The translations under genes were made by a program, and so were the position numbers. Below, piece after piece: positions 6,224-34,258 of a DNA stretch of 64,000 bases. Positions within the stretch are counted from its first letter, which is position 1, and the number at the start of each line of letters is the position of its first letter. The stretch covers positions 155,755 through 219,754 of the forward strand of contig CAWEHO010000003.1 of NCBI GenBank assembly GCA_963808905.1. The letters run 5' to 3'. The notes under the pieces are model-generated. The model searched no databases, had not been told where the DNA came from, and saw nothing but the letters and a program-made list of their open reading frames with translations. The DNA comes from an uncultured Actinomycetota bacterium. Lineage in GTDB: Bacteria; Actinomycetota; Actinomycetes; Propionibacteriales; Propionibacteriaceae.

Positions 6224-8965
6224 ATGACGACGACCGCGCCATCCCGGAACACCACGGCTGAGCACGCTCGGCTCGGTCAGGCCGCCGGACGGTTGGAGGA
6301 CAGCCTCTCCGATGCGAACCCGTGGTACGAATGGGGCCCTTATCTGTCCGAGCGCGCTTGGGGCACCGTACGCGAGGACTACAGCGACAACGGTGATGCA
6401 TGGAGTTTCTTTCCACATGATCATGCGCGATCGCGTGCCTATCGGTGGAACGAAGACGGCATGGCCGGCCTGTCGGATATCCACCACGAGTTATGTCTGG
6501 CCCTGGCGTTGTGGAACGGTGTCGATCCGATCTTGAAGGAGCGAATGTTCGGTCTCACTGGGCCGCAAGGAAACCATGGTGAGGATGTCAAGGAGTACTG
6601 GTGGTATCTCGACGGGTTGCCAAGCCATGCTTGGCTGCGCTGGCGTTATCACTATCCGCAGGAGTCTTTTCCCTATCAGTGGCTGATCGACGAGAACGGC
6701 CGGCGTTCTCGCGACGAGCCCGAGTTCGAGTTGATGGACACCGGTGTCTTTGATCATGGACGGTACTGGGCCGTCGACGTCGCTTACGCCAAGGCGTCAC
6801 CAAGCGAGATACTAGCCAAGATCACGATCAAGAATCATGCCTCCGAAGAGGCGACCCTCTCGGTGCTGCCCACCTTGTGGTTCCGCAACACCTGGCGGTT
6901 CAGCGGCAGCGAACCTCCGAGCTTGTCGCTGCAAGGCGACGCCATCGTCGTTGATCATCCAACGCTCTCCGGGTATCGGCTGGAGGCCGCACCATCCTCG
7001 CACGGCAGCCATCCGCAGGCATTGTTCTGTGACAACGAAACCAATAACCCCAGGCTGTTCGATGCTGCGGCTATCAGCGACTATCCAAAGGATGGAATCA
7101 ACGACCACGTGATCACTGGCGCGAACACGGTGAACCCGGACCAATCTGGCACCAAGGCTTCGTGGTGGTACCAGATCAGCGTTCCTGCCGGAGGCGTTGC
7201 GGAGGTACGTCTCAGGCTTTACCGGCCTGATCAGAACGTGACCCCGACATCCGGCACCTGGTCTGGCCACTATTTCGAGGAGATCATCGCCAGCCGTGAG
7301 CGGGAAGCCGATGAGTTCTACGCCGCATTGGCACCCGATGACATCGGCGAAGAGAAGATGCGCGTGCTGCGTCAGTCATGTGCCGGTCTGATCTGGAGCA
7401 AGCAGATATACCCGTACCGGGTGGCCCGCTGGCTGGACGGCGATCCCGGCCAACCAGCACCGCCGCCAGGGCACCGAACCGGCCGTAATTCCGGTTGGCG
7501 GCATCTTGACTCCTTCGATGTTCTGGCTATGCCGGATCCTTGGGAGTATCCGTGGTTTGCCGCATGGGATCTCGCATTTCACACGATTCCCTGGGCTCAC
7601 CTCGATCCGGCGTTCGCGAAATATCAGTTGCTCGTGCTATTGCGGGAATGGTTCCAGCATCCGAATGGAGCGCTTCCGGCGTACGAATGGAATTTCGACG
7701 ACGTCAATCCTCCGGTCCACGCCCTAGCCGCGCTCCGGGTGTTCGTCATTGACGGTGCGACCGATCTCGACTTTCTCGAGCGCGTCTTCCAGAAGCTTCT
7801 ACTCAACTTCACCTGGTGGCTCAACCGTGAGGATCCCGAGGGCAACAACATCTTCGGTGGCGGCTTCCTCGGGCTCGACAACATCAGTCCCATCGATCGT
7901 TCCCACCTGCCTCCCGGCGTCAAGCTCGACCAGGCCGACGGAACCGCATGGATGGCCTACTACTCAGGCGCAATGCTCGCCCTGGCTGTACTCCTTGCCG
8001 AGCGCGACAGCGTCTATGAGGACATGGTTGTGAAGTTCCTCGAGCAGCTGGTCCTCGTCATGGATGCGCTTGAGGACTCGGGTTGCTATGACCCTGACGA
8101 CGGATTCTTCTATGACCTGCTCACCGATGCCTTCGGGAACAGGGAGCCGATCAAGGTGCAGACACTCGTGGGGGTGATTCCCGCCCTGCCCGCAATGACG
8201 CTGCCAGCTCGAAACGCCGATCGAATCCAACGCTTGCAGAAGCGGTTTGCCCGCAGGATGGAAGCGCAGAATCGGCAGATTTTGGATTGGCGCATCCGCG
8301 GCACCGGGGATGGTCGCCGAGGCCTGGTGTCTATCGTGCCACCGGATCAACTGGCACGGATCTTTGCGACTTTGTTCGACGAGAGCGCATTCTTGTCTCC
8401 GCATGGGTTGCGCGCTATATCAAAACGTCACTCCACGCCTTATCAGGTCCCCGGTATGCCCGGTGCGACGATCGAATATGAGCCCGCCGAATCTCACACG
8501 GCAATGTATGGTGGCAACTCCAACTGGCGTGGACCGGTATGGTTCCCGATCAATTACCTGGTCATTCGCTCACTGCTGCAGTACGACCAGTTCTTTGGGC
8601 CTGAATTCACGATCGAATATCCGACCGGATCAGGACAGAAGTTAGCTTTGCGTGACGTTGCCGACGATCTCGCCGACCGGCTGATCAGCATTTGGCTTCC
8701 GGACCCGGACGGCCGCCGGCCCGTCTATGGAGGCGTCGAACTTCTGCAGACTGACCCCGCCTGGAAGGACAACCTGTTTTTCAATGAGTACTTTCACGGG
8801 GACAACGGAGCCGGACTTGGGGCCACGCATCAGACCGGCTGGACCGCCCTGGTCGCAGACCTGTTACTCGATCCACCTGGCCGGACGCATCGGTTGATCT
8901 TCTACGACGACGACGACCGTGCGGCGCCAGACGTGACGCCGCTCGCCGCAGGCCCGGCCGGTTAG
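6224..8965 (+). CDS. MGH1-like (GH63-related) glucosidase
   Basis: AGGAG RBS, ATG 6224. [76 protein letters not shown] motifs. Confidence 0.92.
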
Positions 8966-8988
8966 TACCACGAACCAGGAGCGGCGCC

Positions 8989-10488
8989 ATGCCATCGGCG
9001 TTGAACAAGATCACTCAACCATTTCTCTACGAGATCAACACCTGGCCCTGGCTTGCGGCAATCAGCCACGACGAAGGACGAGCAATCGATCTTGGATCGG
9101 TCCCCGATCGTTACTGGGATGAAATAGCCGATCTTGGTTTCGATGGCGTTTGGCTGATGGGCGTCTGGCAGCGTAGTCCAGCTGGTATCGCGATCGCGTT
9201 GTCGAATGAGGGCCTGCGCGCCAGCTTCGGAGCCGCACTACCCGATTGGCAAGTTGACGATGTCGTCGGGTCGCCCTACTGCGTACGAGGTTACGTAGTC
9301 GACGATCATTTCGGCGGACGCACCGGCCTGGCTAGCGCGCGCGAAGCTTTGGCGGCACGAGGCCTCGGGCTCATCTTGGATTTCGTACCCAATCACGTAG
9401 CGCCTGACCATCAATGGACGACAACCAGTCCGGAACTGTTCGTGCCGGGCGCTACCCCAGATCTGGAGAGGGACCCGGCGTCGTTTGTCGAGATTGCCGG
9501 GCGAGTCCTTGCCAACGGCCGCGATCCGTACTTTCCGGCCTGGCCCGATGTCGTTCAGCTCAACGCGTTTGATCCAGCCCTGCGCGCCGCCGTGATCGAG
9601 ACGCTGAACGACATCGCCGACCAATGCGACGGCGTTCGTTGCGACATGGCCATGCTGGTCATGAATGACGTCTTCGCACGGACCTGGGGTGATCGGGTCG
9701 GACCAACCCCGAGCACCGACTATTGGCCAACTGTGATCCCCGCGGTTCGCGATACCCACCCCGGATTCGTGTTCCTGGCCGAGGCGTACTGGGACATGGA
9801 GTGGGCATTGCAGCAACAGGGATTCAACTACTGCTACGACAAGCGGCTCTACGACCGCATCGTGCAAGGACCTGCCGAGCAGGTACGCCTGCACCTGATG
9901 GCCGACGACGAATACCAGCACCGCCTTGTGCGGTTCATCGAGAACCACGACGAACCGCGGGCCGCGGCGACATTTGGTTCCACCAGATCGCAGGTCGCTG
10001 CCGTCACAGCGCTCACTCAGACCGGCGCGAGGCTGGTCCACAACGGCCAACTCGAGGGAGCGACGGTACATCTGCCGGTATTCCTCGGCCGATACCCCGC
10101 GGAGCCGACTGACGCCGCACTTCTCGCGTTCTATCGCTCACTCCTGCCGGCACTGGCTGACCGAACATTTCGCAGCGGCCGCTGGCGCCTGTGCGATCGG
10201 CTCGGATGGCCGGGCGATGATCGATACCAAAACCTTCTTGCCTGGTCCTGGGAGGGCGACACACGTTGGCTGATCGTGGTGAATCTCAGCGGTGCTACTG
10301 CGGCAGGCCTGGTGCGAACGCCCTGGGCCGATCTGCGGGGACGCCCATGGCAGCTTGCGGACCCGACGCAGAACCTCGTATTCGTGCGCTCCGGAGACGA
10401 TCTTGTCGATGGGCTGTTTGTTGAGCTTGATGCGTGGCGGTGGCAGATGTTCCGCATCGACCCGACTTCGAACGTCCCACCCACGTGA
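8989..10488 (+). CDS. GH13 alpha-amylase family glycosyl hydrolase
   Basis: LDFVPNH, DGVRCDMA (nucleophile), FLAEAY (acid/base), FIENHD motifs. Confidence 0.92.
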   Translation: MPSALNKITQPFLYEINTWPWLAAISHDEGRAIDLGSVPDRYWDEIADLGFDGVWLMGVWQRSPAGIAIALSNEGLRASFGAALPDWQVDDVVGSPYCVRGYVVDDHFGGRTGLASAREALAARGLGLILDFVPNHVAPDHQWTTTSPELFVPGATPDLERDPASFVEIAGRVLANGRDPYFPAWPDVVQLNAFDPALRAAVIETLNDIADQCDGVRCDMAMLVMNDVFARTWGDRVGPTPSTDYWPTVIPAVRDTHPGFVFLAEAYWDMEWALQQQGFNYCYDKRLYDRIVQGPAEQVRLHLMADDEYQHRLVRFIENHDEPRAAATFGSTRSQVAAVTALTQTGARLVHNGQLEGATVHLPVFLGRYPAEPTDAALLAFYRSLLPALADRTFRSGRWRLCDRLGWPGDDRYQNLLAWSWEGDTRWLIVVNLSGATAAGLVRTPWADLRGRPWQLADPTQNLVFVRSGDDLVDGLFVELDAWRWQMFRIDPTSNVPPT

Positions 10489-15652: not shown

Positions 15653-15708
15653 GCCGCTAACATTGGATTGGACTTATTCGCCGATTCGGCTGCGAATGGC
15701 CGGGGGCG

Positions 15709-15714
15709 TATAAT
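15709..15714 (+). promoter_or_regulatory. Consensus -10 box TATAAT upstream of the kinase-STAND gene
   Basis: Exact TATAAT 26 nt before TTG 15740 (GAAGGGG RBS-like). No consensus -35 at 17 bp. Confidence 0.45.
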
Positions 15715-15739
15715 TCCGTCTGAAGATGAAGGGGTTCAC

Positions 15740-18700
15740 TTGCCGGAATTAGTCACCGACTTCCAATCCTTACCAGAAGAATACCAGCACCTCATTCGTC
15801 TGGCGGAGGAGACTCACAAGATCGCCGTTGCTCCGCTTCAGCTACTGGTCGGAGGTTGGTCGGGTGCTGTCGTCTATCTTGTCAGTGTTTCGAACAAAGA
15901 CACGAAACGCGTTCAACACTGCATTCTCAAACTAGACCGCAGGGGCAGGAGCGCCAAATCGGACGAAATAACACGGCATAACACGCTGATCAGCAAGTGC
16001 ACACCCGAGTTTGCCCGGGATCATATTGCGGAGTTGGTCTTTGATCGTGTTGAGCATGATGGCACAATTGCCATTTTCTATAGAATTGCCGGTCAATCCT
16101 TGCTCAAGTATCGTCCCTTGTCAGACTACGAACGGCAAAGCCAATTAAGAACCATTTTTGCCAAGACCAATGAAGTACTTCTTGTCGAGTGGAACAGCGC
16201 TCCATCGTTTGAAGCCGTCCACCCGCACAAGATATTGCAGAGATGGTTGGGTTTCCGCTTGGATTCCGGCGGAAACATCGAATCGTTCTTACAAGAAGAT
16301 TTACACCTGAGCCCAGATAGTGCGGGCTTACTCGTCAACGGACGCGTGTTCCCCAATCCGTTGAGCTATGCGCGAAAGGCTGACCTATGGGGCAAGGCTC
16401 GGCCTATCGATATTGCGTCCGGATTTATCCATGGCGACTTGAATGCTAACAATATCTTAGTCAGATTTTCCGAAAACAACGAATTTCTTGATGGCTACTA
16501 TCTGATCGACTTCGCGCTCTTCAAGGATCAAATGCCACTGTTCTACGATCAGCGTTATTTGGAAATGTCCTACCTGACGCACGCCATGTCACGTATCTCA
16601 TTTGCCAAGTGCATAGATTTTCTCACGTTGCTGGCTGTGGCGGATGTGCCAGATCCTCATAAGGTGCCGATCGAGATGTCCGGCGTCTCTTCGGTCATTG
16701 GGTCTGCTCGAGACGCATTTGGTGGGTGGGTGCAAGACAGTCATCCGAGTTTGCATGATGATCTTTGGGGACAGTACTGGTTGGCCGGAGTCGCCGCCGG
16801 GTTGGGTTACTGTCACAAGGTTGGTTTGTCCGCTGAGCAGCGCTTGGCCGGATTGATTTACGCGGCTGCCAATCTCAAACGGTATGCCGTGACGTTCAAC
16901 CTGCCGGCACCCACCAATGTAGAACCGCTCTACGATGAGAGCCAGGCCGACACAGGCCCTTCTACAATGGGGAAATCTACGATCGGAAACCGAAGCATAA
17001 CCTCCCTAGCTCAACCCACTCCCTTCATCGGGCGCCAGTCGGAACTGACAGCTGTGAAAGACCTCCTGACGCGCGACCAACAGGAGGCACGTCTCGTAAC
17101 ACTGACCGGTCCGGGCGGCACAGGAAAGACCCGTTTGGCGGTTCAGGCTGCTGCAGACCTGGTCAGTCGCTTCTCGGATGGCGTCTATTTCGTCGACCTT
17201 GCGCCGATTCGGGAGCCCGAAGCTGTGCTGACGACGATTGCCCGGACGGTAGCCATCAGAGAAAGTAGCGATCGGCGGTTGCTAGATGAGATCAAAGAGC
17301 AGTTGCAGTCTAAAGCGATGTTGCTGGTGCTCGATAACTTCGAGCAGGTTACGGCGGCGGCCCCATCGGTAGGGGAAGTGCTTCAAGGCTGTCCGCAGTT
17401 GAAACTGCTGGTAACCAGCCGGGAACCCTTGCACTTGCGTGGCGAGCATATTCGCTCGGTGCCTCCGCTCACTCTCCCGCGCGCCGATCACAAGCAACAA
17501 TCTCTCGAACAATTGACTCAGTGTGAAGCGGTGAGATTGTTTGTCGAACGCGCTATGACGGTCAAGTCGGATTTTGAATTGACAAACGAGAACGCTCCCG
17601 CTGTTACCGAGATCTGCCTCCGGCTGGACGGGTTGCCGCTCGCAATCGAGCTTGCGGCGGCCCGAATGAGGCTGTTTTCGCCGCGAGCCCTACTTGAGCG
17701 ACTAGGTGGTCGGTTGCAGATGCTTCGGGGTGGCGCCCGGGACCTCCCTGTTCGACAACAAACGCTGCGCGACACTATTGACTGGAGCTATGAACTGCTT
17801 GGCGATGGTGAGCAAAGATTGTTTGCGCTGCTCTCAGTGTTCGCAGGTTGGACATTCGACGCGATTGAGACAGTCACCGCCAAGATGAATCATCATCTCG
17901 ATGGGTTGAAGCTCGATGCTCTCGAGGGGCTGGACTCGCTTGTGGATAAAAGCCTGATCCGACAGACAGATCAAGACACCGGCGAGCCTCGGTTGCTGAT
18001 GCTGGAAACAATCCGAGAATACGCAACGGAACGGCTTGCGCAGGATGAGGAGTTCGCCGCGGCGGCTCACCAGGCCCACGCCGTGTACTACGCCGATTTT
18101 GCCGCGCGTCAATGGGAACGCATGAGCGGCGATGGTCGTGAGGCTGCTCTGCGGGAGATGGAATCTGATATCGAGAACTTGCGGATTTCTTGGCGCCATT
18201 GGGTTGAAAAAAAGGATCTGGAACAACTCAACAAGTTTGTCAACGGTCTCGGATTGCTGTATGACGCGCGCGGTTGGTACCACGCTACCGTGGAACTCAC
18301 GAATGATTTACTAAACGTCCTGGCTGCTACGCCCTCCACACCGGAACGCGTAGAACAGGAGATAATGTTGCAAACCAGCCTCGCTCGCGCGCTGATGGTA
18401 AGCAAGGGATATGGCGAAGAAGCTGAGCAGGCATACGTCCGGGCGCTGGAACTTTGCGAAAAGGCGGGCGAAATTCCTCAGGTGTTTCCCGTACTGCGCG
18501 GCCTGGCCTCGCTTTATAATTTCCGTAATGAGTCAGATAAGGCTGAGCAGCTGGGTGAGCGCATGTTGGATCTGGCCGAACGTCTTGGCGATGTAGATAT
18601 GAAGATTGAAGGGCTGCTGGTTACTGGCTCTAACCTAGCGTTTACTACGAGTCCACAATTGGGTCTGGAGCATATCGAAAGAGGGATCCTCTTATATAAC

Positions 18701-19523
18701 TCACAACGTCAACCCAGCAGGGGCCTTGGTATTGGACCGAATCCGGGAGTGGTAAGTCTCAACGTGTCGGCTTTGTTCCTTTGGACCGGCGGCTATCCCG
18801 ATCGCGCCTACAATCGTGCGGCCGGAGGCGATAGCGCTGGCGCGGAAACTCAACCACCCTTACAGCCTCACCTATGCCCAGTTCCACAACGGTCTACTCA
18901 ATATGTGGCTAAGGAATTACGAAATTGCTCGGGACAGCGCCGAAGCCGTACTGGAACTCGCCGAGACGTACGGATTCCAGATTTGGAGTGCGATTGGCTC
19001 CTGTCTGCGTGGTGCGGCCTTGGTCAACCTCGGAAGGATAGCGGAGGGCCTTGTGTTGACCGAACAAGGGCTCAGGGCGTATCGCGGACTTAAAACCCCT
19101 CCGGTCTTTTGGCCGCTGCTTCTCCATCTTTGTGCAGGCGCATATGGCGCAGCCTCACGACCAAGGGATGGGTTAGCTCTGCTGGACGAGGCTATGGCGG
19201 TGGAGAAATTCAGCTCAAGTTCCTCGGAGAGCTTGACTGGCGAGTTTTTGAGCCTGAAAGGTGATTTTCTCCTGGCGCTGTCGTCCGATAATGCTGCCGA
19301 CGCGGAATCTCTTTATCAAGGTGCTGTGAATAGTGCTCGTCAAGCGGGTGCAGCAATGGTTGAACTACAGGCAGCCATGAGATTGAGCCGCCTATGGCAG
19401 GATCACGGAAAATCCGAGCAGGCGCGAGAATTACTGAGCGCGGCGTACTCAAAAATCACCGAAGGCTTCACTACGGCGGACATGAAGGAAGCAAATGCCC
19501 TTCTCGCCGCACTGTCGTCATGA
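15740..19523 (+). CDS. Phosphotransferase-fold kinase + STAND (NB-ARC-like) ATPase + TPR-like repeat protein (apparent +1 frameshift at ~18824)
   Basis: Kinase motifs GGWSGAVV, ILKLD, HGDLNANN (16430-16453), LIDFA. Walker A GPGGTGKT (17108-17131), Walker B LLVLDNFE, LVTSRE, GLPLAI, TIDWSYELL. Removing one G at 18824-18825 joins ...AYNRAA to EAIALARKLNHPYS, giving ~1260 aa. Confidence 0.85.
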
Positions 19524-20353
19524 CGGTAAATCCTGACGAAATCGGGGTTGGTGCAACCGACGAATTGAGCCTACGCGTGAGCGTCGCCACGCTGGTGAGG
19601 GTGCTTTTCAAGAATCCCAGCAATGATGAATTGATGTTGGCTCTGGAGCGCAAAGCGACTCTGCGTAGAACAGCAGAGGGCGGAGCGGTCCGAGTAAAAT
19701 CCCAACCTTTTGGCGGCGCGATCCGGATATTGGATTTGAGTACGGTGCACGACCTGGTCGACGACTTTCACTTTGATAGCGAGCGCTCGCGAGCCGAGCA
19801 GGACTTCCGCATATTCATTAGACCATCATCCTGGTCGTCGCTCCGGGAGTTCTGTCTACAGCACATCGTTCTTGACGACGATCTCATTCTTGAGACCAGT
19901 CCAAGTCGAGAACTGGTCGAAGAGTTCGCCGAAACATTAGGCGTTGAATTGAGGCCGGAGCAGTATGTCAGCAAGCCGGTAGCAACAATAGTCGAGAATA
20001 GGGCGATATCGACCGAAAACATTTATGCGTCGGGAACTTCCACGGTTAGAATCTATCGCATTTACGAAGCCATCATCACAGATTTGTTCTTGCCACATGT
20101 CATGCTTGAGCACGGAAACGATTTGTCTCATCAGAGACTATGTGAACTGGCAATTGCAGATGCTCAAAGCGGCGGGAAGGGAAAGGCAAATGCCGTTTTG
20201 ACTCTGCCATGGGAACGTCTCCAAAATGTTTACCGAGCCATGGCGCCAGCAGAACGCGACATCCCCATTGTGTTTGAGGAGAATCGGTTGGATTCGAGTG
20301 TCGCAGCGATTTTGGAAGAGATCGCCGTGCCACGGTATCAAGGCGTGTACTAG
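19520..20353 (+). CDS. NUDIX-fold protein resembling the SMODS-associated NUDIX domain
   Basis: ATGA overlap with the upstream stop. LRVSVATLVR, QPFGG, QDFR and ETSPSRELVEEF match my recollection of the Sa_NUDIX pattern (RVS.AYL.R, QPVGG, DLR, E.SP.RE..EE). Confidence 0.65.
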   Translation: MTVNPDEIGVGATDELSLRVSVATLVRVLFKNPSNDELMLALERKATLRRTAEGGAVRVKSQPFGGAIRILDLSTVHDLVDDFHFDSERSRAEQDFRIFIRPSSWSSLREFCLQHIVLDDDLILETSPSRELVEEFAETLGVELRPEQYVSKPVATIVENRAISTENIYASGTSTVRIYRIYEAIITDLFLPHVMLEHGNDLSHQRLCELAIADAQSGGKGKANAVLTLPWERLQNVYRAMAPAERDIPIVFEENRLDSSVAAILEEIAVPRYQGVY

Positions 20354-20560
20354 TGGTCTGGCGCTGAAATCCTCTCCCGGCGGCGGCCGCAACGTCTCAG
20401 CGATGATCTTCCGCTGGTCGACCAACCGGGTGATACCGGCATCGACATGTCGGGACCGCCACACAGTCACGGTCGGCCGCGATACCCAGACCCGATTGGC
20501 GATCTCGGCGTTGCGCAGGCCTTCGGAAGCCAACAGTCGGATCCTGCGAACAGCGCGTCA
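20340..20560 (-). mobile_element. Decayed IS630-family transposase N-terminal fragment
   Basis: RRIRLLASEGLRNAEIANRVWVSRPTVTVWRSRH...DQRKIIAETLRPPP resembles the IS630 HTH region. In-frame stop just upstream, internal deletion, no DDE domain. Confidence 0.75.
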
Positions 20561-20754
20561 CGGTGCAATCCCAGGCAGCGCCGGCACACACAATCAAGCA
20601 CCGCGGGTAGGTCCATGCGTAGATCCACGGCCCAAGGCTGTCGTGATCGTCTTCAGCCGAGGACCTCCTGCACGCCCGTGAGAGAATTTGCAGGATATCG
20701 AGCCCACAAATTCCCTTGTCCCATAATTCCGGGATAACCGGAGAGCGAGCACAT

Positions 20755-23700
20755 ATGGCTGTTGATCTCAATACCACAGCGGACCGGACGTCCGCCGAAG
20801 CGGAGCCGGCTCAGCATAAGCCTGTCCGCACCGATGTGCTGCGAGATGATCGCTGGCCTGACTGGCTGGCGACAGCGATGTTCGCGTTTGCGGCGCTCGT
20901 CGTGGTCGCCACCTTTATTCCGCCACTGAGACGGTACTTCGCCCGGTCGCACGACGTCGTATCGATGTTGACGATCCCGATCGTGCCGAATCTCGTCTAT
21001 GCGGCATTGCTCATCGCGGTCGGTATCGCTTTACGCCGTCGGCTTCGCGCAGCCTGGTGGATCTTCGTCATCTGGTGGATCATCCTTCCTCAGTTAGCTC
21101 GGATTGTTTCGATCTTCAGCGGTGGCCCGCTGCTGCAGATAGCAGGCCTAGTGATCATGAGCGCAGTTCTGGTGATCCTCTGGCGTGCCAAGCCGCAATT
21201 CCAGGCTCGCGGCAGGGTGAGAAATCTCTTCGCCGCGATCGCCTGCTTCCTTGCCGGCGGCGTAGTGATCTTGCTTCTCGGCACCTGGCTCGTGAGCACA
21301 TTCGGCACCACACCGGATCTACCAACCGCGACGCTCCACGTACTCGACAAGATGCTGGGCGACGTCGGGCTGGTCGACGCCGACCAGGTGCACTCGCCCT
21401 TCTGGGTCACGATCTTGTTGGACGTCCTGGGCGCGGCGGTCATCCTCGCCTCGACCTACCTGCTTTTCAAGCCACCACCAGAGACGCACACTTTGAGCGC
21501 GGTGGATGAGGCCCGGGTGCGAACCCTGCTGCGCTCTTTCGGCGATTGGGACTCACTGGGCTATTTCGCCACCCGCCGAGACAAGTCCATCATGTGGAAC
21601 ACCGGCGAACCGGCGACGGCGCAAGCAGGCGTTTCCTACCGGGTGATCGGATCGGTGAGCCTGGCCAGCGGCAACCCTGTGGGCGACCCCCAGCATTGGG
21701 GATCGGCCATCGAGCAGTGGCGTGCCAAGGCTCGCGCTCACGGTTGGTCATGCGCTGTGATGGGCGCGGGCGAGTTGGGCGGAGCCGCATATACCGAGGC
21801 CGGGCTTGACAGCGTTCGAGATCGGCGACGAAGCGATCCTCGACATGCGAACCTTCTCGCTCAACGGCCCCGGAATGAAGTCAGTGCGCCAGTCGGTCAG
21901 CAGATTGCAACGCCGCGGGTACACCACGATGTGGCCCGGCACGGTGATGTGGACCCTGCACATTTCGACGAACTGTCTGCGTCGGCGTCGCATTGGCGAG
22001 GCGACGGTGGTGACGAACGAGGCTTCTCGATGGCGCTTGGGCGTCTCGGGGACCCACTGGACGCCCAGTGCGTGCTCGTGGAGGCCCACGATGCCGAGGG
22101 CGAACTGCGAGCGTTCCTCAGCTTCGTGCCGTGGGGCCGTAACGGTTTGTCGCTCGATCTGATGCGCCGCGATCCCACCGCCGACAACGGCCTTGTCGAG
22201 CTCATGGTGGCCTCGCTGGCGGAGCGAGCAGCTGTATTCGGCATCGGGCGGGTATCGCTGAACTTTGCCATGTTCCGCGAGGCTTTCGAACGCGGCGCGG
22301 AGCTTGGCGCCGGGCCGATCGCGCGACTGTGGCGGCAGGCACTCGTGCTAGCCAGCAGGAGCTGGCAGTTGGAGTCCCTCTACCGCTCGAATGCCAAGTA
22401 CCAACCTGAGTGGCAGCCTCGATACATCTGCTTCGAGTACCCCTCAGATCTGCCTCGCGTCGGCACCGCCGCGGGCAGCGCCGAAGGTTTCCTGACGCGA
22501 CCCACGCTGGCGACGTTGAGAGGTCACGGCAACGAACCAGAGGCAGGTGCGCTGGAACGAGCCGGGGAGGAGTACGTGGCAGAGGTACAGGCCAACATTC
22601 CTGCTGAGCCTGATGCCCTTGCCGAGGCCCTGTCCACCGAAGGCTTGCCCGAACAGGTCCGCGTACGCCGCGAGAAGCTGGAGCGGCTGCGTGGCGAAGG
22701 CGTCGATCCATATCCAGTGACGTTCCCGCGCACGCACACGCTGGCCCAGGTCAGAGCCGAGGCAGGTGATCTTCCGCCGGATACGCGCACGGGTCGGCGG
22801 GTCTCAATTGCTGGCCGAGTCATCCTCAGTCGGGATGGCGGCAAGCTTTGTTTCGCCACGTTGCGCGACGGCTCCGGCGACTTGCAGGTCATGATCGCTC
22901 TCGACGCCGTTGGACCCGAGATGCTGCAGCACTGGCGGCAGGACGTCGACTTGGGTGATCACGTCGGCGTCACCGGCGAGGTGATCACCACCAAGCGCGG
23001 GGAGCTGACTGTCCGCGCCGACTCGTTCATGATCACCAGCAAGTCGATTCGACCCTTGCCCGACAAGCACAAGGGCCTCACCGACCCCGAGGCCCGCGTC
23101 CGGGCACGCTATGTCGACTTGATCGTGAGACCGGAAGCCCGTGAGGTGGCCTACGCTCGCGCCACGGTCGTCCGCAGCGTCCGCGAATCTCTGCATGATC
23201 GAGGTTTCACCGAGGTCGAGACGCCGGTCTTGCAGCTGATCCACGGCGGCGCGAACGCCCGGCCCTTCGAGACCCACATCAACGCATATGATCTTGATCT
23301 CTACCTGCGGATCGCCACCGAGTTGCACCTGAAGCGGCTGATCGTCGGAGGCATGGAGAAGGTGTTCGAGATCGGTCGCCAGTTCCGCAACGAAGGAGTT
23401 GACTTCAAGCACAACCCGGAGTTCACCTCCATGGAGGTGTATGAGACCTATGGTGACTACAACACCATGCGGGTGTTGACCCAGCAGATCATCCAGGAAG
23501 CCGCCACGGCGGTTTACGGCTCACCGATCGCGCGTAGGGCAGACGCCGATGGCAAGATCACCGAGTATGACTTCTCCGGCGACTGGCCGGTCAAGACGAT
23601 CTGCCAAGCGGTTTCGGAAGCACTGGGCGAGGAGATCACTGTTGATACCCCGGTATCGGTGCTGCACAAGCACGCTCGAGCGATCGGGCTCGAGCTCGAG

Positions 23701-24126
23701 TCCAACGCGAGCTGGGGATATGTGCTGGAGGAGATCTACGGCGAACTGTGCGAGGGCCAAACTACGACACCGGTCTTCTACACCGATTTCCCGAAGGAGA
23801 ATTCGCCGCTCGCCCGCGAACATCGGGACGATCCGCGGCTAGCGGAAAAGTGGGATCTCGTGATCTTCGGCTCGGAGCAGGGCACCGCGTATTCCGAACT
23901 GACCGATCCGCTCGAGCAACGGGAGCGGCTCGTCGCTCAATCTCTTAGGGCCGCCGCGGGCGATGCGGAGGCGATGCAGGTCGACGAGGACTTTCTCCAG
24001 GCTTTGGAGTACGGCATGCCGCCGACCGGCGGCATGGGCATGGGTATCGACCGCTTGGTGATGAACCTCACTGGCCTCGGAATCCGGGAGACGATCTTGT
24101 TCCCACTCGTGAAGCCACAGGCCTGA
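20755..24126 (+). CDS. lysX: Bifunctional lysylphosphatidylglycerol synthetase / lysine--tRNA ligase LysX
   Basis: TM domain, MprF-like SLGYFATRRDKS and SLDLMRR, then class II LysRS (GGANARPFETH, FRNEG, GMPPTGGMGMGIDRL). Two compensating indels at ~21803 and ~21930. Confidence 0.93.
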   Translation: MAVDLNTTADRTSAEAEPAQHKPVRTDVLRDDRWPDWLATAMFAFAALVVVATFIPPLRRYFARSHDVVSMLTIPIVPNLVYAALLIAVGIALRRRLRAAWWIFVIWWIILPQLARIVSIFSGGPLLQIAGLVIMSAVLVILWRAKPQFQARGRVRNLFAAIACFLAGGVVILLLGTWLVSTFGTTPDLPTATLHVLDKMLGDVGLVDADQVHSPFWVTILLDVLGAAVILASTYLLFKPPPETHTLSAVDEARVRTLLRSFGDWDSLGYFATRRDKSIMWNTGEPATAQAGVSYRVIGSVSLASGNPVGDPQHWGSAIEQWRAKARAHGWSCAVMGAGELGGAAYTEAGLDSVRDRRRSDPRHANLLAQRPRNEVSAPVGQQIATPRVHHDVARHGDVDPAHFDELSASASHWRGDGGDERGFSMALGRLGDPLDAQCVLVEAHDAEGELRAFLSFVPWGRNGLSLDLMRRDPTADNGLVELMVASLAERAAVFGIGRVSLNFAMFREAFERGAELGAGPIARLWRQALVLASRSWQLESLYRSNAKYQPEWQPRYICFEYPSDLPRVGTAAGSAEGFLTRPTLATLRGHGNEPEAGALERAGEEYVAEVQANIPAEPDALAEALSTEGLPEQVRVRREKLERLRGEGVDPYPVTFPRTHTLAQVRAEAGDLPPDTRTGRRVSIAGRVILSRDGGKLCFATLRDGSGDLQVMIALDAVGPEMLQHWRQDVDLGDHVGVTGEVITTKRGELTVRADSFMITSKSIRPLPDKHKGLTDPEARVRARYVDLIVRPEAREVAYARATVVRSVRESLHDRGFTEVETPVLQLIHGGANARPFETHINAYDLDLYLRIATELHLKRLIVGGMEKVFEIGRQFRNEGVDFKHNPEFTSMEVYETYGDYNTMRVLTQQIIQEAATAVYGSPIARRADADGKITEYDFSGDWPVKTICQAVSEALGEEITVDTPVSVLHKHARAIGLELESNASWGYVLEEIYGELCEGQTTTPVFYTDFPKENSPLAREHRDDPRLAEKWDLVIFGSEQGTAYSELTDPLEQRERLVAQSLRAAAGDAEAMQVDEDFLQALEYGMPPTGGMGMGIDRLVMNLTGLGIRETILFPLVKPQA

Positions 24127-27429: not shown

Positions 27430-28182
27430 TCAGGCGTCTCGGGAGCGGTCGCGCGTGCCGACAGGTGCCCAGCCGCGGTGGGTTGGGGCGGCTCCCGGAG
27501 CTGGCAGATCATCCCGGCTCCGGTAGACGATGTAGGGACGGAACAGGTAGTGCAGCGGAACCGTGAAGGCATGCACCAACCGCGTGAATGGCCAGATGGT
27601 GAACAGCAGCATCCCGATGAGAGTGTGGACCTGGAAGGCGAGCGGAGCCGCCGCCATCGAGTCGATCTTGGGCGAGAAGTAGAACAGCGAGCGGAACCAG
27701 GGAGACACAGTGTCCCGGTACGTCGCGTCGGAGTGTCCGCCGAACACGCTGAGCACCGTGGTCGCCAACCCGGCCACGATCGCCGCCACCAGGACCACAT
27801 ACATCGCCTTGTCGTTCTTCGTGGTAGCCATGAACACCGGACCGGTGGTGCGGCGACGATAGATCAAGATCAATATCCCGGCCAGGGTGCAGAGGCCGGC
27901 GAGAGTGCCCCACAGCAACGCATTGAAGTGATAGATGCCTTCGGTGATTCCGAGCGCCGCGGTCCACGACTTCGGGATCACCAGACCGCCGAAGTGGCCG
28001 ACGATCACGACGAGAATTCCGAAGTGGAACAACGGAGAGCCGATCCGCAGCAGCCGCGACTCGTAGAGCTGCGATGATCTTGTGGTCCACCCGAACTGGT
28101 CGTAGCGATACCGCCAGATGAGTCCGCCGACCAGGATCGCCATCATGACGTACGGCAGGACGCCCCACAGCAAGACGCTCAT
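27430..28182 (-). CDS. narI: Respiratory nitrate reductase gamma subunit
   Basis: RYDQFGWTTRSSQLYE, LFHFG..GH, FQVH, WPFTRLVH haem b ligand motifs. Confidence 0.95.
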   Translation of the reverse strand: MSVLLWGVLPYVMMAILVGGLIWRYRYDQFGWTTRSSQLYESRLLRIGSPLFHFGILVVIVGHFGGLVIPKSWTAALGITEGIYHFNALLWGTLAGLCTLAGILILIYRRRTTGPVFMATTKNDKAMYVVLVAAIVAGLATTVLSVFGGHSDATYRDTVSPWFRSLFYFSPKIDSMAAAPLAFQVHTLIGMLLFTIWPFTRLVHAFTVPLHYLFRPYIVYRSRDDLPAPGAAPTHRGWAPVGTRDRSRDA

Positions 28183-28818
28183 CGTGGCGCTCCCTTGGGC
28201 AGAAGTGGAAGGGATTTCGGCTCCAGCCCGACCATCTCCGCCGGCGGACCGGCGGCCGCCATTGCCATGACGGCCTTGCGATCGGCTGGTGACGAGCCGG
28301 GCAAGGTCGCACACACGGCTGTCACTACACCGGCGTACGGCGTGCTCCGTTCGATCAGAGCCAATCGCAGCAGCTCGAGGCTGCTGCGGTACTGCTGCAG
28401 CAATGCGGTCCCATCGACCGGGTCGACGACTGCCGCGTATTCCAGCACCATCGGCAGGTAGTCGGGCAGCTCGCCCCTGGTGTCGACCAGGAAACCGGAA
28501 CGCCGGTAGCGCTGCTTGAACGCGGCCAGGACTTCACCGCGCCGGCGGGTGTCGCCGTCGGTCCAGTACGACAGGTAGAGGCTGTGCTTGCGGGACAGAT
28601 CAAAGACATCGACGTAGTGGGTTTGGATCGCTGCCAGATCCGACGAATCCCAGAACGCGAGCAGCAGCTCGAAAGCTCTCGACCGCGTCCGGAGCGCTCT
28701 CAGCCAGGGCCGTACGAAGCAAACCCGACGTTGCGATGATGTCAGCTTCCGGATAACCCAGGCAGACCGCGGCCGCCTGACGAACCACCCGCGCCGACCC
28801 TCGGCGCTGCCTTTTCAC
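28179..28818 (-). CDS. narJ: Nitrate reductase molybdenum cofactor assembly chaperone (apparent +1 frameshift at ~28673)
   Basis: CLGYP, YVDVFD, LYLSYWTDGDTRRRG, ELPDYLP. Removing one T in a TTT run joins the two frames; GTGA/ATGA overlaps at both ends. Confidence 0.88.
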
Positions 28819-30475
28819 GCTGGCTCCCCGCGGCTGGGGAACATTCCCTCGGGTGCACCCTTGCCATCCCAATTGAGCAAATTCACCCGGCCCTGGAGCT
28901 CCTCGCCGGAAACACTCACGTCCGATGTCTGCCGTTGCCGCAGCGCATGGAAGGTCTCGACGGCGACTGGGGACGGGCGGCCACTGGCTTCCCCGAAGGG
29001 TCCCTGCTCGTACGGCCCACCGTCGAAGTCGAGCGAGCAGCCGAGTTCCTCCAGCTCGTGGGCCTGCTCGACGTGGGCGGTGGGGATCACGTAGCGCTCG
29101 TGGTATTTCGCGATGGCCATCAAGCGGTACATCTCGCGCATGCTCTGGTCGGTCATGCCCACCGATGCAGCAATCGAATCGTCCTGTGGCTGATCCAGAG
29201 TGATGTTGCGCATATGCGCGCGCATGGCCGCCAAGATCGTCAGCACGCGCTCGATCTCGCCCACGTCCCCTGCGGTGAACAGCTCTGCCAGGTACTCCAG
29301 TGGAATCCGCAGTGCTCGAATGGCCCCGAACAGGACACCCGGTGATTCAGCCTCGTGGCCTTGATCACGAAGCAGATCGACGATCGGCGAAAGCGGCGGG
29401 ATGTACCAGACCATCGGCATCGTGCGATATTCCGGATGCAACGGAAGCGCGACCTTGTAGCTCTTGGCCAGTGCGTACACCGGCGAGCGACGTGCGGCAT
29501 CGAGCCAGTCGGCCGGGATGCCCTGCTGCCGAGCTGCAGCAACGACCTCGGATCATTGGGGATCCAAGATCAGATCCAGCTGCGCGGCGTACAGGTCCTT
29601 CACATCGGGTGTCCTGCGGCCGCGGTGGTGACCCGGTCGGCGTCATAGAGGAAGAGGCCGAGGTAGCGCAGCCGTCCGACGCAGGTCTCCGAGCACACCG
29701 TCGGCAGCCCGACCTCGATCCGCGGATAGCACAGCGTGCACTTCTCGGCCTTGCCCGTCTTGTGGTTGAAATAGATCTTCTTGTACGGACAGCCAGTCAC
29801 GCACTGCCGCCAACCACGGCAACGATCTTGGTCGACCAGCACGATGCCGTCCTCGGCCCGTTTGTAGATCGCACCCGAAGGGCAGGACGCCATGCACGAC
29901 GGGTTCAGGCAGTGCTCGCAGATCCGCGGCAGGTAGAACATAAAGGTCTGCTGGAAGTCGAACTTGATCTTCTCTTCGGACTGCTGCCGTACCCGCTGCA
30001 CGATCGGGTCGAGATGTCCCTGTTCGCTGACGCCGCCGAGGTTGTCGTCCCAGTTCGCCGACCAGGTGATCTTGGTGTCCTCGCCGGTGATCAACGACTT
30101 GGGCCGGGCCACCGGAAAGTCGTCACCAAGTGGTGCATCGATCAACGTCCGATAGTCGTACGTCCACGGCTCGTAGTAGTCCGCGAGTTTGGGTTGCACC
30201 GGGGAGGCGAAGATGCCTAGCAACTTGCGGACCCTGCCCCCGGCCTTGAGCTTCAGCCGGCCACGGCTGTTCAGCGTCCAGCCGCCCCGCCAGGCTTCCT
30301 GATCTTCGTAACGGCGCGGATAGCCCTGGCCGGGCCGGGTCTCCACATTGTTGAACCAGACGTACTCCGTGCCAGCCCGGTTGGTCCAGGCCTGCTTGCA
30401 GGTCACCGAACAGGTGTGGCAACCAATGCACTTGTCCAGGTTCATCACCATGCCCATCTGGGCCATGACGCGCAT
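28815..30475 (-). CDS. narH: Respiratory nitrate reductase beta subunit (apparent frameshift at ~29613)
   Basis: MVMNLDKCIGCHTC, CEHCLNPSC, CRGWRQC, KCTLCYP, then in the other frame ALPLHPEYRTMPMVWY. Confidence 0.93.
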
Positions 30476-33400: not shown

Positions 33401-34258
33401 CCGATAGCGCACTTCGGCCATCCAGTGCGCATCGGGCGTTCGGGTGACGGGAACGTTGGAGCCCCACATCATCAAATAGGTGGCGTCCCACCAGTCACCG
33501 GATTCCGGCACGTCAGTTTGATCACCGAAGACCTGTGGACTGGCGACCGGCAGGTCGGCGTACCAGTCATAGAACGACGTCATTACTCCGCCGATGAGCT
33601 GGGTGAAGCGAGTCCCTACGCAGTGGGAGACCATCGACATCGCCGGGATGGGTGAGAAGCCGGCGATCCGATCCGGCCCGTATGTCTTGATCGTGTGTAC
33701 CTGGGCAGCAGCGATCATCTCCACCGCTTCGGCCCAGGACACGCGTACCAGCCCGCCCTTGCCGCGGGCCCGGTGATAGCGACGCCGACGTTCCGGATCG
33801 CCGACCACATCGGCCCAGGCCAGCACCGGGTCCTTCAGTCGCTGCTTGGCTTCGCGATACATCTCCAGCAGAACGCCGCGGGCGTACGGATACCTGACCC
33901 GAGTGGGCGAGTAGGTGTACCACGAGAAGGCGGCACCACGCGGGCAGCCGCGAGGCTCATACTCCGGTCGATCCGGACCGACGGACGGATAGTCGGTCTG
34001 CTGTGCTTCCCACGTGATGATGCCGTCGCGGACATAGATCTTCCAGGAGCAGGAACCTGTGCAATTCACACCATGAGTGGATCGCACCACCTTGTCGTGA
34101 CTCCACCGATCCCGATAGAACACATCGCCAGCCCGACCGCCCTGACGAAAAACCACCCGACCGTCCTCGGACTCCTCCCATCTGGTGAAGAACCGGCCTA
34201 GCTTCAACAGCGCCTCGGAGGCGCGCCCATCAACGCCGGCAGGGACCGGAGGATTCAT
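30475..34258 (-). CDS. narG: Respiratory nitrate reductase alpha subunit (apparent +1 frameshift at ~32886)
   Basis: STHGVNCTGSCSW, EPRGCPRGA, DWYADLP, HYVGQEK, LTPHSKWSIHS, NYLGPTGNQRD. Removing one A in an AAA run joins the two ORFs. Confidence 0.95.
33086..33123 (-). repeat. REP-like element inserted in frame in narG
   Basis: 36/38 identical to the intergenic copy at 26150-26187; translated as (S)EPFDKLRTAPVE in NarG. Confidence 0.85.

What the first reader, a model, noticed from the sequence alone, without database searches (positions are those of the whole stretch)
15740..20353. Candidate new system: kinase-STAND-TPR protein coupled to a SMODS-associated-NUDIX-like protein
Seen: two genes joined by an ATGA overlap (19520-19523), lower in GC than the flanks, preceded by a perfect TATAAT and followed by an IS630 remnant. 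Gene 1 is kinase + NB-ARC-like ATPase + TPR-like repeats; gene 2 carries a NUDIX-like REL.EE helix. Established: STAND NTPases with an N-terminal effector and C-terminal repeat sensor act as NLR-like switches, several of them antiviral (Avs, bacterial NACHT), and the Sa_NUDIX family is known from CBASS/SMODS neighbourhoods. Inference: ligand-triggered oligomerisation activates the phosphotransferase, and the NUDIX protein makes, removes or detoxifies a phosphorylated nucleotide product. I know of no named system with this pairing.
Basis: partly seen in the sequence, partly recalled or inferred. Interest (0 to 1): 0.88.

Follow-up and report, generated by a model that had tools for sequence, protein, structure and literature searches.

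The report
Kinase-STAND switch paired with Nudix enzyme
A horizontally acquired two-gene unit, a large switch protein carrying a kinase-like enzyme head plus a small Nudix-fold enzyme, is conserved as a pair in soil Chloroflexota and a few Actinomycetota; no function is described for it, and I found no evidence yet that it is an antiviral system.

Summary
Gene 1 (15740-19523) has an APH/EcKL-like kinase head that matches Pfam TCAD9, then an NB-ARC STAND ATPase, then TPRs. Gene 2 (19520-20353) overlaps it by ATGA and is predicted with high confidence to have a Nudix fold with an invariant RELxEE helix. The unit lies in a 4.9-kb low-GC island that ends in a 41-residue IS630 remnant.

Gene 1 is broken by one extra G near 18824. 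narG, narH and narJ in the same window also carry frame breaks, so this may be an assembly error.

The pairing is conserved. In 23 of 24 public genome loci with enough upstream DNA, the kinase-STAND gene lies directly upstream of gene 2. The kinase head and the Nudix gene stay together on three different middle and C-terminal scaffolds (two NB-ARC/TPR types and a class III cyclase type).

A kinase tree nests the actinobacterial copies inside Chloroflexota, which points to horizontal transfer. The pair is rare: 4 of 37 genomes in the window's genus and 3 of 201 Anaerolineales.

The antiviral reading has no support so far. There are no relevant PADLOC hits and no defence-island context (one R-M pair among 110 neighbouring ORFs). 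No SMODS gene lies next to the pair. Some gene-1 relatives lack gene 2.

Verdict: a new, untested variant of NLR-like STAND modules, of moderate interest.

The parts
15660..20540 (.). Low-GC island holding the two genes and the IS630 remnant (GC 0.545 against 0.62 in the flanks)
   Evidence: patchy presence within the genus; kinase tree nests the actinobacterial copies inside Chloroflexota
15710..15715 (+). Perfect TATAAT hexamer, a possible -10 element 25 nt before the start codon; not significant on its own
15740..16954 (+). Gene 1, N-terminal APH/EcKL-like (TCAD9-type) kinase domain. Motifs: GGWSGA 15851-15868, Lys64 in ILKLD 15923-15937, HGDLNANN 16430-16453, IDFA 16505-16516
   Evidence: Pfam TCAD9 at 66.5 bits. 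The motifs are invariant in 26 homologues. Secondary Pfam hits: EcKL in 26 of 26 and APH in 21 of 26, with no Pkinase hit. Coordinates
17036..17671 (+). Gene 1, NB-ARC (AP-ATPase) STAND NTPase. Motifs: Walker A GPGGTGKTR 17108-17134, Walker B LLVLDNFEQ 17321-17347, TSR 17411-17425, GLPL 17630-17653
   Evidence: Pfam NB-ARC at 42.6 bits; motif coordinates
18137..19523 (+). Gene 1, C-terminal TPR-type repeat region, read across the frameshift. The stop overlaps the gene 2 start
   Evidence: TPR_12 and TPR_21 hits, and a partial NCBIfam TOMM_kin_cyc match over the TPR part. The region is 65-85% identical to intact homologues
18821..18827 (+). Frameshift site: one extra G (GCCGGAG against GCC-GAG in five homologues) splits gene 1 into ORFs 15668/15740-19093 and 18816-19523
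19520..20353 (+). Gene 2, 277 aa, a divergent Nudix-fold protein. Motifs: QPFGG 19703-19717, DFRIF 19802-19816, RELVEEF 19907-19927. ATGA overlap with gene 1
20354..20533 (-). Remnant of the N-terminal helix-turn-helix of an IS630-family transposase (about 41 residues)
   Evidence: NCBIfam NF033545 positions 9-49, E 7e-6; Pfam HTH_23, weak; no other copy in the genome

Best explanation
This is a mobile two-gene STAND (NLR-like) switch module. Its constant core is an APH/EcKL-like kinase domain and a dedicated Nudix-fold enzyme.

Shown:
- Gene 1 is kinase + NB-ARC ATPase + TPR, and all kinase and P-loop motifs are conserved.
- Gene 2 overlaps gene 1 by ATGA, so the two are probably translationally coupled. 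It has a Nudix fold with an invariant R-E-x-x-E-E helix.
- The kinase head and the Nudix gene stay together while the scaffold between them differs: two NB-ARC/TPR types, or a class III cyclase + AAA + TPR.
- The unit is rare, patchy and horizontally transferred from Chloroflexota into this actinobacterial genus.

Inferred:
- A ligand bound by the TPR array drives nucleotide-dependent oligomerisation of the NB-ARC domain. This brings the kinase heads together and switches them on.
- The kinase phosphorylates a small nucleotide-like substrate (its nearest families are small-molecule kinases), creating a diphosphate-linked product.
- The Nudix partner hydrolyses that product or its precursor. 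It would act either as the second step of the output or as the off-switch that limits background activity.
- The physiological role is most likely a conflict or stress response of the abortive-infection type in filamentous bacteria, but this is unproven.

The copy in this window is interrupted by one extra G, so it is either inactive or mis-assembled.
For: Domains and motifs.

Nudix fold: AlphaFold2 pLDDT 96, pTM 0.92. All top-50 PDB Foldseek matches are Nudix proteins (best E 2.5e-4, probability up to 0.96), and the viral library (BFVD) matches are also mostly Nudix proteins. Sa_NUDIX gives sub-threshold hits in 11 of 49 family members. E43, G65, G66, D95, R97, E131 and E135 are invariant.

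Conserved adjacency: in 23 of 24 genome loci with at least 3.4 kb upstream, the kinase-STAND gene lies directly upstream. Metagenome contexts differ around the pair.

Same kinase and Nudix on different scaffolds.

Patchy distribution and transfer. Low GC plus the IS630 remnant.

Decay in some genomes: gene 1 is deleted in G026, and its kinase N-lobe is deleted in L003.
Against: - No defence-island enrichment and no relevant PADLOC hit. The pair is absent from the phage and plasmid collections.
- Some gene-1 relatives lack gene 2 (L016, L058), and one carries a LuxR-type DNA-binding C-terminus (L060). That fits ordinary signal transduction.
- Within one scaffold class the TPR region is only slightly less conserved than the kinase, so there is no sign of sensor hypervariability.
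- The kinase substrate and the Nudix substrate are unknown.
- Foldseek TM-scores for the Nudix fold are low (0.2-0.47), and the spacing of the Nudix box is non-canonical.
Confidence: 0.5

Rival explanations
1. This is an ordinary, non-immune signal-transduction module, in the manner of MalT/AfsR-type STAND regulators or the mycobacterial PknG-RenU pair. An endogenous metabolite or stress signal bound by the TPR array switches on the kinase. The Nudix enzyme then adjusts a nucleotide cofactor pool such as NADH, FAD or ADP-ribose.
For: - The NB-ARC/TPR part matches the actinobacterial regulators AfsR, FxSxx_TPR and HaaT only partially and below their cut-offs.
- One variant ends in a LuxR-type GerE domain, and another carries a class III nucleotide cyclase.
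- The commonest neighbours are two-component regulators, and there is no defence-island context.
- There is a precedent for a TPR-bearing kinase that works with an adjacent Nudix hydrolase in redox homeostasis (PMC4401782, found).
Against: - No neighbouring target genes are conserved in any context.
- The pair is present in only 1-2% of Anaerolineales genomes and 4 of 37 genomes of the window's genus.
- It has crossed phyla and decays repeatedly. That is unusual for a housekeeping regulator.
Confidence: 0.3
2. The Nudix protein is the kinase's protein substrate or effector rather than a metabolic partner. The activated kinase phosphorylates or recruits the Nudix enzyme, which then depletes an essential nucleotide such as NAD+, ATP or dNTPs, or removes RNA 5' caps or triphosphates.
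For: - Tight overlap of the two genes and their strict co-inheritance.
- Both proteins are very strongly conserved: mean column identity is 70% in the gene 2 alignment and 74% in the kinase alignment. That would fit a conserved protein-protein interface.
- The best structural matches include the decapping enzyme g5Rp, RppH and ADP-ribose or NAD-binding Nudix proteins.
- S21, S87 and T175 are nearly invariant in gene 2.
Against: - The kinase's nearest families are small-molecule kinases (APH, EcKL, Kdo) and not protein kinases.
- Gene 2 stays intact where gene 1 is deleted.
- No interaction evidence could be computed here.
Confidence: 0.25
3. In this particular genome the locus is a decaying relic with no current function. 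Gene 1 is a true pseudogene left after horizontal acquisition.
For: - The single-base insertion breaks gene 1 at residue 1028 of about 1259.
- Related genomes show real loss: gene 1 is deleted in G026, the kinase N-lobe is deleted in L003, and only a TPR-tail remnant is left in L055.
- An IS630 fragment lies next to the pair.
Against: - narG, narH and narJ in the same window also show frame breaks when compared with a close relative.
- Related long-read MAGs show frame breaks in both genes, so an assembly indel error is at least as likely.
- The extra base extends a G run, a typical homopolymer-type error.
Confidence: 0.35

Closest known systems
Bacterial NLR-like STAND defence proteins (Avs/AVAST, bNACHT) and AP-ATPase/NB-ARC STAND proteins in general
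   Same: Three-part layout: N-terminal enzymatic effector, central STAND NTPase with Walker A, Walker B and GLPL motifs, and a C-terminal repeat array (TPR). Patchy distribution with horizontal transfer.
   Different: The effector is an APH/EcKL-like kinase, and the protein has an obligate overlapping Nudix partner gene. There are no PADLOC matches to Avs or bNACHT models and no defence-island context. No phenotype is known.
TCAD9 (Pfam PF19974). It probably corresponds to the APH-like kinase effector that Kaur et al. 2020 (PMC7159879) noted in vWA-MoxR (VMAP) ternary conflict systems; that link is my inference, because the string TCAD does not occur in the paper's main text
   Same: The kinase domain scores above the TCAD9 cut-off in all 26 homologues tested and keeps all catalytic residues. 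The paper suggests this kind of kinase acts on low-molecular-weight substrates.
   Different: Only the C-lobe part of the profile (positions about 268-371 of 429) matches. No vWA, MoxR or VMAP genes are nearby. The domain is fused to NB-ARC/TPR or to a cyclase, and is coupled to a Nudix gene that the paper does not mention.
Sa_NUDIX (Pfam PF18167), the SMODS-associated Nudix domain of CBASS-type neighbourhoods
   Same: It is the only Pfam family that gene 2 and its relatives hit. The REx2EE helix is shared.
   Different: Scores are below the gathering threshold (16.5 against 25 bits). No SMODS or CD-NTase gene is adjacent, and none is present in 9 of 11 carrier genomes. Gene 2 also has an insert of about 55 residues between the GG strand and the catalytic helix, and a C-terminal extension of about 90 residues.
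Mycobacterial PknG-RenU redox system (RHOCS; PMC4401782)
   Same: A kinase carrying a TPR domain is encoded next to a Nudix hydrolase and works with it functionally, in Actinobacteria.
   Different: PknG is a Hanks-type protein kinase without a STAND ATPase, and RenU is a canonical small Nudix protein. No sequence relationship to either gene was found here. This is an analogy only.
Actinobacterial cyclase-ATPase-TPR(-LuxR) and LAL/MalT-type STAND regulators
   Same: The NB-ARC/AAA + TPR scaffold. Some relatives of gene 1 carry a class III cyclase or a GerE domain.
   Different: Those regulators lack the kinase head and the Nudix partner, and they usually sit next to the genes they control.

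Membership tests
STAND NTPase, NB-ARC/AP-ATPase clade | P-loop NTPase with Walker A, Walker B, TSR/RNBS-B and GLPL motifs; Pfam NB-ARC above its cut-off | tested here: met
   NB-ARC at 42.6 bits against a cut-off of 23.5. GPGGTGKTR, LLVLDNFEQ, VTSRE and GLPLAIEL were located
STAND NTPase, NB-ARC/AP-ATPase clade | C-terminal superstructure-forming repeats and an N-terminal effector domain | tested here: met
   TPR_12, TPR_21 and TOMM_kin_cyc TPR-part matches. Homologues carry TPR_12 or TPR_MalT. The kinase head occupies residues 1-405
STAND NTPase, NB-ARC/AP-ATPase clade | Ligand-triggered, nucleotide-dependent oligomerisation | not testable with these tools
   Needs biochemistry or cryo-EM
TCAD9 kinase-like domain (PF19974) | Profile score above the Pfam gathering threshold | tested here: met
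   66.5 bits against a cut-off of 40. All 26 homologues hit, but only over profile positions about 268-371 of 429
TCAD9 kinase-like domain (PF19974) | Active-site residues of the protein-kinase-like fold (Gly loop, beta3 Lys, alphaC Glu, HxDxxxxN, DFG-like Asp) | tested here: met
   G38, G39, S41, G42, A43, K64, E76, H231, D233, N238 and D257-F-A are invariant in 26 sequences
TCAD9 kinase-like domain (PF19974) | Occurrence in vWA-MoxR (VMAP) ternary systems | tested here: not met
   No vWA, MoxR or VMAP genes next to the pair in any context listed, nor among the families shown for the 110 neighbouring ORFs (top 25 families only)
Nudix hydrolase superfamily | Nudix alpha/beta/alpha fold | tested here: met
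   Model with pLDDT 96 and pTM 0.92. All top-50 PDB matches are Nudix proteins, with probability up to 0.96 but TM-scores of only 0.2-0.47. The viral library matches are also mostly Nudix proteins
Nudix hydrolase superfamily | Nudix box GX5EX7REUXEEXGU | tested here: inconclusive
   R130-E131-L-V-E134-E135 is present on helix 129-140 and is invariant or nearly so. The spacing before it is shortened (E125-x4-R130). The GG at 65-66 is separated from the helix by an insert of about 55 residues. There is no hit to Pfam NUDIX PF00293
Nudix hydrolase superfamily | Mg-dependent hydrolysis of a nucleoside-diphosphate-X substrate | not testable with these tools
   Needs an enzyme assay
Sa_NUDIX (PF18167) / CBASS accessory | Profile score above the gathering threshold (25 bits) | tested here: not met
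   Window protein scores 16.5 bits, E 0.008. Of 49 family members, 11 hit at E <= 0.01, best 9.4e-5
Sa_NUDIX (PF18167) / CBASS accessory | Genomic association with a SMODS/CD-NTase gene | tested here: not met
   SMODS is absent from 9 of 11 carrier genomes, including the window's own. Where present it is 200 kb away or on another contig
Catalogued anti-phage defence systems (PADLOC-DB v2.0) | Match to a defence-system protein model | tested here: not met
   Gene 2 has no hits. Gene 1 has only generic P-loop and TPR hits (best: mad8, E 1.5e-4)
Catalogued anti-phage defence systems (PADLOC-DB v2.0) | Enrichment next to known defence genes (defence islands) | tested here: not met
   Among 110 neighbouring ORFs from 13 loci there is one R-M pair and a few generic hits. 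Occasional VapBC, HEPN or NACHT neighbours appear. No formal background comparison was run

The most novel reading that the evidence does not exclude
The kinase head and the Nudix enzyme make up a previously unknown output chemistry for NLR-like switches. On activation the kinase makes a new phosphorylated (diphosphate-linked) nucleotide or metabolite. That product acts as a toxin or second messenger, or the two enzymes together run an ATP-burning futile cycle that halts the cell. The dedicated Nudix enzyme acts as the built-in antidote or timer. This would be a new class of immune or stress effector found mainly in filamentous Chloroflexota.
Probability: 0.15. Interest if true: 0.8.

Novelty: new variant of a known kind. 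Interest (0 to 1): 0.55.

Why it matters
STAND/NLR-type switches are central to immunity in bacteria, plants and animals. Their characterised bacterial effectors are mostly nucleases, NADases, proteases and pore-formers.

This is a widespread family, with more than 1,300 Nudix-partner sequences in public data. Its effector is a small-molecule-type kinase locked to a dedicated Nudix enzyme. That points to an output chemistry not yet described for these switches, and it gives a concrete enzyme pair to assay.

It would also assign a context to a Nudix family that currently has no Pfam membership and is annotated as hypothetical protein wherever a source names it. It would provide an example of gene transfer from Chloroflexota into Actinomycetota. 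If the module is instead ordinary signalling, it is still an unstudied kinase-Nudix regulatory pair.

Tried and rejected
- Sequence searches of the PDB with gene 2 (profile) and with the kinase domain (single sequence and profile) found nothing meaningful.
- The first AlphaFold2 run, with a shallow alignment of 60-95% identical sequences, gave pLDDT 57. A more diverse alignment was needed.
- That second run used the last structure job, so the kinase domain was not modelled.
- I searched 401 Actinomycetota genomes for bona fide Sa_NUDIX members, to build a profile-profile comparison. None were found, so the comparison was not done.
- The empty-site test failed. The upstream flanking gene has orthologues in G003 and G013, but lysX does not follow it there, so there is no comparable empty site.
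- No flanking direct repeats and no Rfam element were found in or around the island.
- Longer proteins containing the gene 2 domain gave no informative fusion partner.
- A distant stand-alone member (P0210, 31% identical) is not next to a kinase-STAND gene. Its 254-aa downstream neighbour is unrelated to it.
- Programmed frameshifting at 18824 was considered and rejected, because five homologues read straight through with one G fewer.
- On the kinase tree the scaffold classes are interspersed, but the well-supported branches do not force more than one origin per class. Repeated module swapping is therefore suggested, not proven.


Full report
**Observation**

The window holds a 3.4-kb ORF (15668/15740-19093) and a 0.7-kb ORF (18816-19523) in different frames. 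An 834-nt ORF (19520-20353) follows and overlaps the stop of the second ORF by ATGA.

I compared the region with an intact 1276-aa homologue from a genome of the same genus (tblastn). Its residues 11-1045 map to 15704-18823 in one frame, and residues 1046-1276 map to 18825-19517 in the next frame. A DNA alignment with five homologues shows exactly one extra G in the window: GCC-GAG in the homologues, GCCGGAG here. Gene 1 is therefore a single gene of about 1259 codons with a one-base frameshift.

The TTG at 15740 is the likely start, because homologues begin MPEL.TDFQSLPEEYQ at the same point.

The island 15660-20540 has GC 0.545, against 0.62 on both sides.

TATAAT is present at 15710-15715. 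It has no recognisable -35 and is not more than chance would give.

The 180 nt after gene 2, on the minus strand, encode about 41 residues that match positions 9-49 of the IS630 transposase model at E 7e-6. There is no other copy in the genome.

**Is the frameshift real?**

Two lines of evidence point in opposite directions.

For real decay:
- G026 has lost gene 1 entirely but keeps an intact gene 2.
- L003 lacks residues about 52-239 of the kinase.
- L055 keeps only a TPR-tail remnant upstream of gene 2.

For an assembly error:
- narG is split in the middle of its Molybdopterin domain in the same window.
- narH and narJ change frame when compared with a 90%-identical relative.
- Several related MAGs whose names point to long-read assembly have frame breaks in both genes.

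I treat the break as unresolved, with an assembly error at least as likely as a pseudogene.

**Gene 1**

Pfam gives TCAD9 at 66.5 bits (cut-off 40) over residues 195-307, with weak APH and EcKL hits over the catalytic loop. It also gives NB-ARC at 42.6 bits over residues 433-644, and TPR_12. NCBIfam gives only partial, sub-threshold matches to actinobacterial STAND-TPR proteins (HaaT, FxSxx_TPR, AfsR) and to the TPR part of TOMM_kin_cyc.

In an alignment of 26 homologues every kinase catalytic element is invariant:
- the GGWSGA loop
- Lys64 and Glu76
- H231-G-D233-L-N-x-N-N238
- D257-F-A

All 26 hit TCAD9, all 26 hit EcKL weakly, 21 hit APH weakly, and none hits Pkinase. The domain therefore sits in the small-molecule-kinase part of the kinase-like superfamily. 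This fits the description in Kaur et al. [quoted passage not shown]

The Walker A, Walker B, TSR and GLPL motifs of the ATPase are intact.

**Gene 2**

The family is compact. It has 1360 cluster representatives (90% identity clusters) in one database, and 218 clusters at 50% identity among 1.84 billion proteins in another. It is strongly conserved, and where a source gives a name it is "hypothetical protein".

With a diverse 49-sequence alignment AlphaFold2 gave pLDDT 96 and pTM 0.92. All top-50 PDB matches are Nudix-fold proteins, including g5Rp, NUDT11, MERS1, NudI, NrtR, RppH, ADP-ribose pyrophosphatases and RenU. The best E-value is 2.5e-4 and probability reaches 0.96, but TM-scores are only 0.2-0.47. 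The viral structure library gives the same picture.

Invariant residues are E43, G65, G66, D95, R97, E131 and E135. R130 and E134 are nearly invariant. R130-E-L-V-E-E135 lies on helix 129-140, as in the Nudix catalytic helix. About 55 residues are inserted between the GG strand and this helix, and the protein has a C-terminal extension of about 90 residues.

The only Pfam family hit is Sa_NUDIX, below threshold: 16.5 bits for the window protein, and 11 of 49 members at E <= 0.01.

Gene 2 is therefore a divergent, probably active Nudix enzyme. It is related to Sa_NUDIX but is not a member by Pfam's own criterion.

**Conservation of the pair**

Starting from gene 2, 37 loci were found in species-representative genomes. 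Six are Actinomycetota MAGs and the other 31 are Chloroflexota, mostly Anaerolineales.
- Of the 24 loci with at least 3.4 kb of upstream DNA, 23 have the kinase and NB-ARC directly upstream.
- The exception is G026, where gene 1 is deleted.
- The shorter contigs run out inside gene 1.

Metagenome contigs show the same pair in unrelated surroundings.

Starting from the kinase domain, its relatives are 73-99% identical but carry different bodies:
- about 1255 aa: NB-ARC + TPR_12, as in this window
- about 1147 aa: NB-ARC + many TPRs
- about 1327 aa: class III cyclase + AAA + TPR
- about 1221 aa: a GerE C-terminus

Gene 2 follows the first three types (L004/L012; L018, L061, L074, L075; L020). 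In L014 a cyclase type, an NB-ARC type and gene 2 stand in tandem.

Gene 2 is missing after L016, L058 and the GerE variant L060. Gene 2 is therefore essentially always found with the kinase, while the kinase protein sometimes stands alone.

**Distribution and origin**

Gene 2 occurs in 4 of 37 genomes of the window's genus and in none of 24 other genomes of the order. It occurs in 3 of 201 sampled Anaerolineales genomes, and the kinase occurs in 4 of 201.

Within the actinobacterial genus the pair sits at two or more different chromosomal sites: between a BPSS1818-family gene and lysX, and between a molybdopterin oxidoreductase gene and a GDPD gene.

In a maximum-likelihood tree of the kinase domain, the actinobacterial copies form one strongly supported clade nested within Chloroflexota sequences. 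Together with the low GC and the IS630 fragment, this indicates horizontal acquisition.

**Defence or signalling?**

PADLOC has no model for either protein. Among 110 neighbouring ORFs from 13 genome loci there is one R-M pair and a few generic hits. The commonest neighbours are response regulators, GerE proteins and HisKA_3 kinases.

A few contigs show VapBC, HEPN or a NACHT protein nearby. The rest of the surroundings are metabolic.

The pair is not in the phage or plasmid collections. SMODS is absent from 9 of 11 carrier genomes and is never adjacent.

Guilt by association therefore gives no support to an antiviral role. Rarity, mobility, repeated decay and exchangeable scaffolds still fit a conflict or accessory module better than a housekeeping regulator. 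I rate the conflict or stress-switch reading at about 0.5 and ordinary signalling at about 0.3.

**Mechanism**

What is shown is the anatomy and the co-inheritance of the two genes. The following steps are inferred:
1. Ligand binding by the TPR array leads to NB-ARC oligomerisation.
2. Oligomerisation activates the kinase heads by proximity.
3. The kinase phosphorylates a small nucleotide-like substrate.
4. The Nudix enzyme acts on that substrate or product, as a second step or as an off-switch.

An alternative is that the Nudix protein is itself the regulated effector. The PknG-RenU system of mycobacteria is an analogous case of a TPR-bearing kinase working with an adjacent Nudix hydrolase (PMC4401782).

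**Literature**

Searches for TCAD9, Sa_NUDIX, Nudix with STAND, and KINtaro found no description of this pairing. The TCAD9 domain is listed only as a kinase-like family.

**Verdict**

The defence interpretation is untested and not supported by genomic context. This is a new variant of the known NLR-like STAND architecture, of moderate interest.

Noticed in passing
window 28180-34258 (-): The respiratory nitrate reductase genes carry frame breaks. narG is split into ORFs 32852-34258 and 30475-32871, in the middle of its Molybdopterin domain. narH changes frame near 29613 and narJ near 28680, compared with a relative that is about 90% identical. This means either assembly indel errors or decay of the nar operon.
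   Followed up: partly
window 20716-24126 (+): An intact lysX-type gene lies directly downstream of the island. It is a fusion of an MprF-like lysyl-phosphatidylglycerol synthase and a lysyl-tRNA synthetase.
   Followed up: no
L014 7040-15625: A tandem array in a soil metagenome contig: a TCAD9-cyclase-TPR protein (1333 aa), then a TCAD9-NB-ARC protein (1254 aa), then the Nudix gene. The two kinase heads are each about 79% identical to the window's.
   Followed up: partly
L011 (G026) 8489-9430; L003 7002-10004; L055 2533-3983: Three independent cases in which gene 1 is deleted or truncated while the Nudix gene remains. The Nudix gene is intact in G026 and L003 and frameshifted in L055. I did not see the reverse pattern within this clade: an intact gene 1 next to a broken or lost gene 2.
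   Followed up: partly
L060 4427-11666: A kinase-NB-ARC-TPR variant ends in a LuxR-type GerE domain and lacks the Nudix gene. It sits beside a divergently transcribed BTAD-STAND-TPR (AfsR-like) gene, with a SLATT_4 gene nearby.
   Followed up: no
L016 2558-13441: A gene-1 homologue without a Nudix partner is followed by about 1.5 kb with no ORF. An NNH1-NACHT-LRR protein, a Hanks-type kinase and a nucleotidyltransferase/HepT pair lie within 10 kb.
   Followed up: no
L072 9001-10565: The most distant Nudix family member examined (31% identical) is not next to a kinase-STAND gene. It is followed by an unrelated 254-aa ORF that looks hydrophobic at its N-terminus.
   Followed up: partly
G069 contig C334 7383-8339 (-): A Propionibacteriaceae MAG that carries the pair also has a second, more typical TCAD9 protein elsewhere in its genome (802-aa open frame). 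This one matches the Pfam profile over its full length.
   Followed up: no
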